DNA of 63,551 nt, the filler included, from Collodictyon triciliatum (taxonomy: Eukaryota), in assembly GCA_043381765.1 (NCBI GenBank). It is 22 parts of 22 records of this genome, joined end to end, with 100 filler letters (N's around TTAATTAATTAA, not from the genome) between each part and the next. Parts side by side here need not be neighbours in the genome. Positions count along the whole stretch, not along the records: positions 20,936 to 23,608 come from JBHJMP010008468.1; 21 more parts are not named here. The stretch is one strand, 5' to 3'. Positions 22,942 to 23,200 of this stretch are shown in pieces. A program made the position numbers and the translations under genes. The notes below the pieces were generated by a model, which searched no databases, was not told the origin of the DNA, and was given only the letters and a program-made list of their open reading frames with translations. Positions within the stretch are counted from its first letter, which is position 1, and the number at the start of each line of letters is the position of its first letter.

Positions 22942-23200
22942 CTCTCAAAATGTGTGCATTGTGGCAAACAAACACACAAAGTTTTTTATAAGTGATTTGA
23001 GAGAAAACGCTGAGAGCCGATTCGGCGAGTTCGAAAGGACGGCCGTATAGCCCTTGCGGCTGAAAGTCAACATATCGGCCCCAAACAGTATGATTACCGC
23101 CGCAAGTGTGGATAGTATGCTTTTTTGAAATGCATGTTTGGTGGCAGGTTTATAGGGTGGGTTCTGTCTGGGCCGGGGCAAGGGGTTGTTTGTCATTTTT
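22942..23200 (+). ncRNA. Unassigned structured RNA-like segment upstream of, and divergent from, the Fanzor ORF
   Basis: Nested stems CTCTCAAA/TTTGAGAG, TGTGTG/CACACA, CCCTTGC/GCAAGGG, CGGCCC/GGGCCG and CCAAACA/TGTTTGG, plus GTTC-GAAA-GGAC. Many G-U pairs on the + strand. Ends in a T5 run. Confidence 0.5.

What the first reader, a model, noticed from the sequence alone, without database searches (positions are those of the whole stretch)
22942..23200. Unexplained ~250-nt structured element upstream of the Fanzor gene
Seen: a long hairpin at 22942-23003, small hairpins GCCGATTCGGC and GTTC-GAAA-GGAC, and a nested multibranch domain. Its pairings are CCCTTGC 23051-57 with GCAAGGG 23178-84, CGGCCC 23076-81 with GGGCCG 23170-75, and CCAAACA 23081-87 with TGTTTGG 23135-41. 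An alternative closing helix TGGCAAACAA/TTGTTTGTCA and a terminal T5 are also present. G-U rather than A-C mismatches dominate on +, implying a + strand RNA. I could not match it to SRP, RNase P/MRP or snRNAs. Inference: it could be a second, divergently transcribed ncRNA of the element, a structured left end, or an unrelated host ncRNA.
Basis: partly seen in the sequence, partly recalled or inferred. Interest (0 to 1): 0.75.

Follow-up and report, generated by a model that had tools for sequence, protein, structure and literature searches.

The report
Inner part of decayed Fanzor transposon
The supposed structured RNA is most likely a GC-rich inner stretch of the upstream arm of a decayed, many-copy Fanzor transposon, and its predicted folds are no better than chance on the strand proposed.

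Summary
A Fanzor1 gene does lie next to it, on the minus strand from ATG 22813 to about 21353, but it is a pseudogene.

The fold is not better than chance on the + strand: z +0.06 for the whole region and +0.53 for the multibranch domain. It is only marginal on the minus strand: z -1.37, -1.88, and -2.56 for the hairpin. No Rfam family matches. Two internal T6 runs precede the terminal T5.

The 83-aa minus ORF has no homologue. An open frame of that length arises in 22% of composition-matched shuffles.

Contigs from public runs show that the whole stretch 21207-23520, this block included, is a multi-copy repeat in related organisms.

My reading is that the block is an internal, non-coding part of the roughly 700-nt 5' arm of a non-autonomous Fanzor1 DNA transposon, and plausibly its upstream control or leader region. 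The element's real guide-RNA candidate sits at the other end, at 21200-21350 on the minus strand (z -3.62).

This is ordinary and of low interest. A selected minus-strand leader structure is not excluded.

The parts
22942..23200 (.). Block A, the finding itself: a GC-rich (about 0.5) non-coding segment inside the 5' arm of the Fanzor1 element
   Evidence: Sequence and GC bins. Covered by multi-copy contigs in run X3 (depth 59-765 per bin) and by contigs of X1, X2 and X18. No Rfam match. Fold z +0.06 on + and -1.37 on minus.
22942..23003 (-). Long hairpin (8 + 6 + 4 bp), the only sub-part with a nominally low z-score
   Evidence: z -2.56, with 2 of 200 shuffles as good, on the minus strand. One relative's contig (X2, loose end at 22982) carries T22955C together with A22974G, a compensatory pair. 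It also carries T22962C, which gives G-U on the minus strand only (table 7, compared by eye).
23051..23184 (-). Three nested helices (7, 6 and 7 bp) forming the 'multibranch domain'
   Evidence: All three are recovered in the minus-strand MFE fold, z -1.88 (7 of 200). On + the z is +0.53. G23175A, present in all laid contigs of X2, X3 and X18 that cover it, breaks the pair on + and gives G-U on minus (table 3).
22945..23196 (-). 83-aa ORF (P0002), judged a chance open frame
   Evidence: No homologue among proteins of near or longer length, in viral contigs or in metagenome contigs. No Pfam match. A fully open frame occurs in 1116 of 5000 core-only dinucleotide shuffles. Atlas recognition is 1680, below the 2300 typical of real proteins.
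21353..22813 (-). Fanzor1 pseudogene (ATG 22813). It has frameshifts and in-frame stops, and lacks roughly residues 419-566 of a 634-aa relative
   Evidence: Frames. phmmer gave 38 relatives. The relative P0008 matches SpuFz1 8gkh at E 9e-37. tblastn of P0008 and P0004 against the window is, and the alignment is.
21200..21350 (-). Canonical 3' guide-RNA (omegaRNA) candidate next to the right end of the element
   Evidence: z -3.62, with 0 of 200 shuffles as good. It is the strongest signal in the sliding scan. Its position, just 3' of the ORF, matches published Fanzor omegaRNAs (passages of PMC10432273 and PMC10530073).
23293..23431 (.). Block B, the second conserved segment of the 5' arm, joined to block A through a variable AT-rich spacer in other copies
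   Evidence: X3 depth is 330-638 here. Contigs in X3 join 23171-23223 to 23292-23343 with other or fewer letters between (tables 2, 5, 5c). Fold z -2.74 on minus and -1.24 on +.
23423..23510 (+). Probable left terminus, weakly similar in inverted orientation to the right terminus at 21296-21220
   Evidence: Local alignment score 32 against mononucleotide shuffles of 20.8 +/- 3.7, with 6 of 500 reaching it. X3 cover ends in the bin 23432-23520. The boundary is not proven, because a microsatellite and N masks follow.
21207..23520 (-). The whole multi-copy unit: a non-autonomous Fanzor1 element of about 2.3 kb
   Evidence: In X3, 394 contigs were laid only within 21207-23520: 48 at >=99%, 87 at 95-99%, 126 at 90-95% and 133 under 90%. 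A (GAAAAAAA)n repeat lies outside both sides.

Best explanation
Block 22942-23200 is not a stand-alone RNA gene. It is an internal, non-coding, GC-rich segment of the roughly 700-nt 5' (left) arm of a non-autonomous Fanzor1 DNA transposon of about 2.3 kb (about 21207-23510, gene on the minus strand). This copy is dead: its nuclease gene carries frameshifts, stops and a large internal deletion.

The block is repeated, together with the Fanzor body and a second conserved 5' block (23293-23431), in many diverged copies in related organisms.

Shown: location, multi-copy status, lack of a significant fold on +, lack of any Rfam or protein match, and the guide-RNA candidate at the opposite (3') end.

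Inferred: in intact copies the arm supplies the element's own upstream control region (promoter and 5' leader) for the Fanzor transcript. This is because the block lies 130-390 nt upstream of the conserved start codon, on a mobile element that must carry its own expression signals. The listed helices are the kind that GC-rich sequence of this length forms by chance.

I put about 0.7 on 'transposon-internal segment, not a + strand ncRNA' and about 0.35 on the promoter/leader role specifically.
For: (1) Fanzor identity and orientation. The piece 21523-21891(-) finds 38 relatives at E<=1e-3. The full-length relative P0008 matches SpuFz1 8gkh at E 9e-37 and maps back to 22807-21353 on the minus strand. 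P0008 and other full-length relatives start at the same Lys-rich N-terminus as the ATG at 22813, so the block lies upstream of the gene and not in it.

(2) Multi-copy status. In run X3, 394 contigs at 80-100% identity cover 21207-23520, with block A bins at depth 59-765 against 136-378 for most of the Fanzor body. Contigs of X2 (about 90% identity) cover both the Fanzor body and 22982-23207. Block A is joined to block B in several X3 contigs.

(3) No selected fold on +: z +0.06 and +0.53. The scan places the locus's real structure signal at 21150-21400.

(4) No known RNA family matches: 0 of 4227 at gathering score over the window, and nothing in the block at E<=10 or E<=5.

(5) No coding signal.

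(6) Precedent. In giant-virus relatives L004-L007 the terminal inverted repeats enclose about 1.37 kb upstream of the Fanzor1 ORF. A published survey reports conserved non-coding sequence beyond the ORF on both the 5' and 3' sides of Fanzor loci (PMC10530073, passage seen).
Against: Physical linkage of block A to the Fanzor body in other copies is not shown. The AT-rich stretch 22855-22924 was masked, and no listed contig bridges it.

The right boundary of the repeat is not established, because a microsatellite and N masks follow 23520.

Depth in 23076-23164 (765) and 23343-23431 (638) is 2-3 times that of the Fanzor body, so the arm may also exist apart from Fanzor or belong to another family.

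No transcription start, promoter motif or splice joint was observed, so the promoter/leader role is inference only.

The hairpin has z -2.56 on the minus strand, and one relative shows a compensatory pair change. This hints at some selection on structure.

The block is absent from the 5 distant Fanzor1 loci available, so nothing shows it is a general Fanzor feature.
Confidence: 0.55

Rival explanations
1. The helices are a selected RNA structure on the MINUS strand, the same strand as Fanzor. This would be a structured 5' leader of the Fanzor transcript, or a second RNA component of the element, made of the 22942-23003 hairpin plus the three-helix domain.
For: Minus-strand folds are consistently lower than shuffles: z -1.37, -1.88 and -2.56. 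The minus-strand MFE recovers all three nested helices. One X2 contig has T22955C with A22974G, a compensatory pair. T22962C and G23175A keep pairing only on the minus strand, as G-U.
Against: None of the z-scores survives the roughly 96 tests of the sliding scan, where the block's windows reach -2.05 at best. The compensatory evidence is one pair in one contig. No alignment of copies could be obtained. No Rfam match. The one RNA-library contig (X18) runs across the 23200 boundary into the spacer rather than ending there. That is weak evidence, because the library may contain DNA.
Confidence: 0.12
2. Blocks A and B belong to a different repeat family, or to a fragment of another mobile element, that merely abuts the Fanzor pseudogene here. 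They are not part of the Fanzor element at all.
For: No listed contig bridges 22855-22924. Depth in parts of the arm is 2-3 times that of the Fanzor body and far above that of the 3' end, which is 22-55. The similarity between the termini is weak, with 6 of 500 shuffles reaching it.
Against: Cover is continuous in kind and identity spectrum from 21207 to 23520 in X3. Both parts are found in X1 and X2. X2 contigs end at about 22854 and begin at about 22935 on either side of the masked low-complexity stretch, which is compatible with colinearity. Relatives carry a long 5' arm inside their inverted repeats.
Confidence: 0.13
3. The 83-aa minus-strand ORF 22945-23196 encodes a small, possibly membrane, protein of the element. 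It would be analogous in position to the small conserved ORF upstream of Fanzor1 in the giant-virus relatives.
For: The ORF is intact in a copy whose Fanzor gene is broken. An ORF this long appears in only 43 of 3000 shuffles when the AT-rich flanks are shuffled in. L004 and L006 have a small ORF at the same relative position and strand, with 88% amino-acid identity over 41 residues against 74% nucleotide identity for the element.
Against: With the block's own composition, 1116 of 5000 shuffles have a fully open frame. No homologue was found in four searches. There is no Pfam match and no similarity to the giant-virus small ORF. Atlas recognition is low. Laid contigs carry gaps inside the block: 6 in 257 nt, 12 in 286 nt and 4 in 116 nt (table 8). 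GC3 (0.54) is the highest of the three codon positions.
Confidence: 0.05
4. One reading: a roughly 259-nt + strand ncRNA, transcribed divergently from Fanzor and ending at the T5.
For: T5 lies at 23196-23200. Two G-U pairs (in GTTC/GGAC and in the alternative closing helix) are compatible only with +. In giant-virus relatives the region upstream of Fanzor is transcribed divergently, but there it is a transposase gene.
Against: z is +0.06 and +0.53 on +. T6 runs at 22982-87 and 23121-26 would stop RNA polymerase III before the T5 (established knowledge of Pol III termination). No Rfam match. No similarity to the 3' guide-RNA region in inverted orientation. Variants in relatives create C-A mismatches on +.
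Confidence: 0.04

Closest known systems
Conserved non-coding flanks of Fanzor loci (Jiang et al. 2023, PMC10530073; passages seen)
   Same: Conserved non-coding sequence extends beyond the Fanzor ORF on the 5' side as well as the 3' side. [quoted passage not shown]
   Different: That paper characterises only the 3' RNA experimentally. Here the 5' block is seen in one decayed copy plus unassembled contigs. The paper's supplementary tables, which may list 5' regions by family, were not seen.
Fanzor / TnpB omegaRNA (SpuFz1, ApmFz2; PMC10432273 and PMC10530073, passages)
   Same: A structured non-coding region within a Fanzor-carrying mobile element.
   Different: Known omegaRNAs lie at the 3' end of the ORF, on the same strand, overlapping the right end, with the guide reading into the flank. 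Block A lies 5' of the ORF, about 300 nt inside the other end. It is unlike the element's own 3' region and has no significant fold. The locus has a proper candidate at 21200-21350.
Tc1/mariner-type Fanzor1 elements of giant-virus contigs
   Same: A related Fanzor1, with 46% identity to the window piece over the RuvC-I region. A long region upstream of the Fanzor start lies inside the element.
   Different: There the upstream region encodes a DDE_3 transposase on the opposite strand and a small conserved ORF. The window's arm shows no remnant of either and no DNA similarity.
IscB/IsrB omegaRNA (recalled from the OMEGA literature; only mentioned in the passages seen)
   Same: A large structured RNA encoded upstream of the nuclease ORF on the same strand. 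This is the arrangement a minus-strand reading of block A would mimic.
   Different: It belongs to a different nuclease family (IscB, not TnpB/Fanzor). That RNA abuts the left end with the guide at its 5' side. No sequence or Rfam similarity was found here.
'Ghost' non-autonomous Fanzor elements (Saito et al. 2023, PMC10432273; passage)
   Same: Non-coding conserved DNA bounded by Fanzor-type ends, present in more copies than the gene itself. Here parts of the arm have 2-3 times the depth of the gene.
   Different: Ghosts keep the omegaRNA end. Here the 3' end has the lowest depth, 22-55, so a ghost origin for the excess copies is not supported.

Membership tests
Fanzor1 (for the neighbouring gene) | Sequence homology to experimentally defined Fanzor1 proteins | tested here: met
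   The window piece finds P0008 at E 2.5e-8. P0008 matches SpuFz1 8gkh at E 9.2e-37, Parasitella Fz1 at 7.2e-34 and Guillardia Fz1 at 7e-16. P0008 maps to 22807-21353(-) at E 6.7e-30.
Fanzor1 (for the neighbouring gene) | RuvC-I D-x-G and RuvC-III RD-x-N motifs. The published Fanzor RuvC-I form is DPG (PMC10711439, passage). | tested here: met
   VDAGKFNL and RDFNSAINIL are in the minus-strand frames. D56 and G58 are invariant in the 16-sequence alignment. 13 of the 15 aligned relatives have DPG and two (P0003, P0005) have DAG, as the window copy does.
Fanzor1 (for the neighbouring gene) | Intact ORF with the RuvC-II glutamate and zinc finger | tested here: not met
   Residues of about 419-566 of P0008 have no counterpart in the window. 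Several frames and in-frame stops are present. The gene is a pseudogene.
Fanzor/TnpB omegaRNA (for block A) | Encoded at the 3' end of the nuclease ORF, on the same strand, overlapping the right transposon end | tested here: not met
   Block A lies 130-390 nt upstream of the start codon. The 3' position is occupied by 21200-21350.
Fanzor/TnpB omegaRNA (for block A) | Stable conserved fold | tested here: inconclusive
   z +0.06 and +0.53 on +, and -1.37, -1.88 and -2.56 on minus. Conservation of the fold could not be tested, because no alignment of copies was obtainable.
Fanzor/TnpB omegaRNA (for block A) | Scaffold ends at the transposon boundary, followed by a variable guide | tested here: not met
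   Conserved block B and the probable terminus (23293-23510) lie beyond block A on one side, and the Fanzor gene lies on the other.
Known housekeeping or curated ncRNA (SRP, RNase P/MRP, snRNA, ribozymes and others in Rfam 15) | Covariance-model match | tested here: not met
   0 of 4227 families at gathering score over the window. Within 22700-23500 at E<=10 there were only two hits, both outside the block. Within 20940-23600 at E<=5 there was one hit, also outside the block.
RNA polymerase III transcript on + | No internal T-run of 4-5 or more before the terminator | tested here: not met
   T6 runs at 22982-87 and 23121-26 precede the T5 at 23196-23200. The rule itself comes from general knowledge of Pol III termination.
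Protein-coding exon (83-aa ORF) | Homologues, or an ORF longer than composition predicts | tested here: not met
   No homologues. 22% of composition-matched shuffles are fully open.
Tc1/mariner transposase remnant (by analogy with L004-L007) | Detectable DDE_3/HTH similarity in the arm | tested here: not met
   tblastn best E was 0.84. Pfam on 16 stop-free frames found nothing below E 0.007, and all hits were far under their cut-offs.

The most novel reading that the evidence does not exclude
Fanzor1 elements of this family carry, in addition to the 3' guide RNA, a conserved structured RNA module in their 5' arm. It would be read on the same strand as the nuclease, and consist of the hairpin 22942-23003 plus a three-helix domain at 23051-23184. 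It would act as a cis-regulatory leader or a second RNA partner. That arrangement is known for IscB-type systems but not described for TnpB/Fanzor. The only positive hints are marginal minus-strand z-scores and one compensatory pair change in one relative's contig.
Probability: 0.1. Interest if true: 0.55.

Novelty: new member of a known kind. Interest (0 to 1): 0.2.

Why it matters
A second, 5'-encoded RNA in a eukaryotic Fanzor element would matter for understanding how these RNA-guided nucleases are expressed and for engineering them.

The evidence here points the other way. The block behaves like ordinary internal transposon DNA in a dead copy, and the element's guide-RNA candidate is where the literature says it should be.

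The useful result is a delimitation of one more Fanzor1 transposon family: a pseudogene, a 3' RNA candidate, a roughly 700-nt conserved 5' arm and many copies in related organisms.

Tried and rejected
- Own genome and earlier findings: neither was available.
- Second copy in the window: none found (blastn).
- Related DNA through public collections:
  - P0002 in viral contigs matched 25 patterns with none confirmed.
  - P0002 in metagenome contigs matched 598 patterns with none confirmed.
  - The Fanzor piece in viral contigs gave one 10-residue chance match, L001.
  - The subfamily alignment A2 in metagenome contigs gave two weak loci, L002 and L003. Neither has detectable Fanzor nor the block.
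  - A2 in genome and viral contigs found nothing.
  - P0004 in genome and viral contigs found nothing.
  - A 20-base word of the block gave 3 hits of only 20-27 nt in bacterial MAGs, which is about what chance predicts, and 0 in viral contigs.
- No alignment of copies could therefore be built, and no covariation test was run.
- Fanzor piece against longer proteins by word index: nothing. Fanzor pieces directly against PDB: nothing meaningful.
- Similarity of block A to the 3' RNA region in either orientation: at shuffle level.
- CpG decay as an explanation of the hairpin changes: rejected, because CpG observed/expected is about 1 across the element.
- 5'-UTR intron idea (a TTTCAG directly before the ATG): no joint supports it.
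- Small shares of words in 20 runs: not used for any habitat claim. Only X1, X2, X3 and X18 were laid.
- The single X18 contig comes from an RNA library but may be DNA, so it does not show transcription.
- My 60-shuffle scan gave z -3.96 for 23300-23449(-). The 200-shuffle tool gave -2.74, so I use the latter.
- Literature searches (listings only) showed no paper on a 5' Fanzor RNA. Supplements were not examined.

Full report
WHAT IS THERE. The window is AT-rich eukaryotic DNA with periodic N masks. No genome is held for it.

The stretch 22942-23200 is a GC island: 0.53 and 0.48 in 23000-23199 against 0.20-0.27 in the flanks. All of the main helices are perfect Watson-Crick pairs, so they carry no strand information.

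IS IT MORE THAN CHANCE? On the + strand it is not.
- The 259-nt region folds at -72.2 kcal/mol against a shuffle mean of -72.4 (z +0.06; 102 of 200 shuffles fold at least as well).
- The multibranch domain 23045-23190 gives z +0.53.

On the minus strand the values are somewhat lower.
- The whole region gives z -1.37 (12 of 200).
- The domain gives z -1.88 (7 of 200).
- The hairpin gives z -2.56 (2 of 200).

In my sliding scan (48 windows of 150 nt, both strands, 60 shuffles each), the five windows overlapping the block range from +1.52 to -2.05. The locus's clear signal is at 21150-21400, where z is -5.56 on + and -3.59 on minus. The tool confirmed this at z -3.62, with 0 of 200 shuffles as good, for 21200-21350 on the minus strand.

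No Rfam family matches the block. Over the whole window, 0 of 4227 families reach gathering score. The permissive local scans returned only hits outside the block. On the + strand, two T6 runs (22982-87, 23121-26) precede the T5, which argues against a Pol III product of that length. That last point rests on general knowledge.

THE NEIGHBOUR IS A FANZOR1 PSEUDOGENE. Minus-strand frames between 22813 and about 21300 contain VDAGKFNL (RuvC-I) and RDFNSAINIL (RuvC-III).
- A full HMMER scan with the piece 21523-21891(-) found 38 proteins at E<=1e-3, 4 of them at E<=1e-10. They include full-length proteins of 620-760 aa.
- One of these, P0008 (634 aa), matches the solved Spizellomyces Fanzor1 at E 9.2e-37 over residues 14-607, and also the Parasitella and Guillardia Fanzor1 structures.
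- Of 10 relatives scanned in Pfam, 5 show the Cas12f1-like TNB domain at E<=0.01, and 1 of those is above the curated cut-off.
- P0008 maps back to the window as residues 2-327 to 22807-21857, 351-418 to 21792-21586 and 567-604 to 21466-21353.

The copy therefore lacks roughly residues 419-566. It also changes frame and contains in-frame stops, so it is dead. Full-length relatives begin with the same Lys-rich N-terminus followed by the conserved ...VKTSLKS... motif, as does the ATG at 22813. Block A is therefore upstream of the gene and not an N-terminal exon.

THE BLOCK IS PART OF A MULTI-COPY UNIT. No public run holds the stretch entire. The best holds 0.29 of the sampled words, and 20 of 24 listed runs hold small shares. 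I laid four runs on 20940-23600 at 80% likeness or better.
- In X3 (kind guessed as RNA, possibly DNA), 394 contigs lie only within 21207-23520: 48 at >=99%, 87 at 95-99%, 126 at 90-95% and 133 below 90%.
- Summed depth is 136-378 over most of the Fanzor body and 59-765 over block A. It is 330-638 over a second conserved block at 23254-23431, and only 22-55 at the 3' end.
- Several X3 contigs join 23171-23223 to 23292-23343 with fewer or different letters between. Blocks A and B are therefore linked in other copies through a variable AT-rich spacer.
- X2, a metagenome, has 24 contigs at about 80-97% identity over both the Fanzor body and 22982-23207.
- X1 has 4 contigs, one identical over 22944-23094.
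- X18, an RNA library, has one 153-nt contig over 23099-23214 that continues into the spacer.

There are limits to this evidence. The AT-rich stretch 22855-22924 was masked, so no listed contig bridges Fanzor and block A. The right boundary cannot be fixed, because a microsatellite and N masks follow 23520. The same (GAAAAAAA)n repeat lies outside both sides. The last roughly 80 nt of the 5' arm, read outward, resemble the 3' end read outward: score 32 against 20.8 +/- 3.7 in mononucleotide shuffles, with 6 of 500 reaching it. This is a weak sign of long degenerate inverted termini.

IS IT CODING? The 83-aa minus ORF (P0002) has no homologue among proteins of near or longer length. It has none in viral or metagenome contigs, no Pfam match and no usable hit in the protein atlas, where its recognition value is low.

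An ORF that long is rare if the AT-rich flanks are shuffled in (43 of 3000). With the block's own composition, however, 1116 of 5000 shuffles have a fully open frame. Laid contigs carry gaps inside the block (table 8). I treat the ORF as a chance open frame.

IS IT A SECOND GUIDE RNA OR A GENE REMNANT? Block A has no similarity to the element's 3' RNA region in either orientation.

The nearest relatives whose DNA I could fetch are five giant-virus contigs with intact 634-aa-class Fanzor1 genes.
- Between L004 and L006 the homology runs from 2631 to 5952 and is bounded by 33-nt inverted repeats.
- It encloses, upstream of Fanzor, a 346-aa DDE_3/HTH transposase on the opposite strand.
- It also encloses a small ORF on the Fanzor strand that is 88% identical between the two loci over 41 residues.

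A long 5' arm inside a Fanzor1 element therefore has precedent. But the window's arm shows no remnant of that transposase (best E 0.84), of the small ORF or of any Pfam domain. It also has no DNA similarity to those loci beyond short AT-rich matches outside the GC core.

HINTS THAT KEEP A STRUCTURAL READING ALIVE. The loose end of one X2 contig at 22982 (table 7), compared by eye with the window, shows three relevant changes.
- T22955C occurs together with A22974G. These two positions pair in the hairpin, so the change is compensatory.
- T22962C would pair as G-U only on the minus strand.
- G23175A, present in all contigs of X2, X3 and X18 that cover it, does likewise for the CGGCCC/GGGCCG helix.

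This amounts to one compensatory pair in one contig.

HOW IT MOST LIKELY WORKS. Published Fanzor guide RNAs lie at the 3' end of the ORF, overlapping the right end (passages of PMC10432273 and PMC10530073). This locus has such a candidate at 21200-21350. The second of those papers also notes conserved non-coding sequence on the 5' side of Fanzor ORFs. It leaves open whether this reflects transposon boundaries or longer RNAs.

I read block A as part of that kind of 5' arm: internal transposon DNA, 130-390 nt upstream of the start codon. In live copies it most plausibly carries the element's promoter and 5' leader. That role is inferred from position alone, and I observed no transcription start or splice joint.

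I put about 0.7 on 'transposon-internal, not a + strand ncRNA' and about 0.35 on the promoter/leader role.

NOVELTY AND VERDICT. This is a new member of a known kind: one more Fanzor1 transposon family, seen here as a dead copy. The finding as stated, an unexplained structured RNA, is not supported by shuffling controls, Rfam or the context. Interest is low (0.2). What remains open, and could not be tested because no alignment of copies was obtainable from the collections available, is whether the 5' arm's hairpin and three-helix domain covary across copies.

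Noticed in passing
window 21200-21350 (minus strand): Strongly structured GC-richer region immediately 3' of the Fanzor1 pseudogene (z -3.62, 0 of 200 shuffles as good). It is the likely canonical omegaRNA scaffold of the element, with a 9-bp GGTCTCACC/GGTGAGACC stem.
   Followed up: partly
window 20945-21100 and 23520-23600: The same (GAAAAAAA)n-type microsatellite lies on both sides of the Fanzor element. About 100 nt of unique, uncovered sequence (21101-21206) separates it from the right end.
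   Followed up: no
window 23423-23503 (+) vs 21296-21220 (-): Weak inverted similarity between the two outward-reading ends of the element (6 of 500 mononucleotide shuffles reach the score). These may be long degenerate terminal inverted repeats that include part of the 3' RNA region.
   Followed up: partly
L004 2620-5952 (also L005-L007): Giant-virus contigs carry a compact element: 33-nt inverted repeats, a 346-aa DDE_3/HTH (Tc1/mariner-like) transposase on one strand, and a small conserved ORF plus an intact 634-aa Fanzor1 on the other.
   Followed up: partly
L004 3740-3949 / L006 3571-3951: Small basic ORF directly upstream of Fanzor1. It is 88% identical in protein over 41 residues, while the element as a whole is 74% identical in DNA. 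It has no Pfam match and its function is unknown.
   Followed up: partly
window 23300-23449 (minus strand): The second conserved block of the 5' arm folds somewhat better than shuffles (z -2.74, 2 of 200) and has high contig depth in run X3.
   Followed up: partly
window 24007-24528 (+): 173-aa open frame with a weak C2H2 zinc-finger match (E 0.006, below the cut-off), downstream of a KNIKKHQKTS-type tandem repeat at about 23800-23960. Its relation to the Fanzor element is unknown.
   Followed up: no
window 19657-19944 (-), 27209-28153 (+), 29387-30404 (+), 34741-39855 (-): Host-gene pieces in the window: a WD40 repeat, two Myb DNA-binding repeats, universal stress protein domains, and a 1704-aa open frame with a TMEM132 domain.
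   Followed up: no
whole window: Pairs of 44-N runs recur about every 2775 bases, alongside four longer N runs (338-554 nt). They look like masks, not assembly gaps.
   Followed up: no
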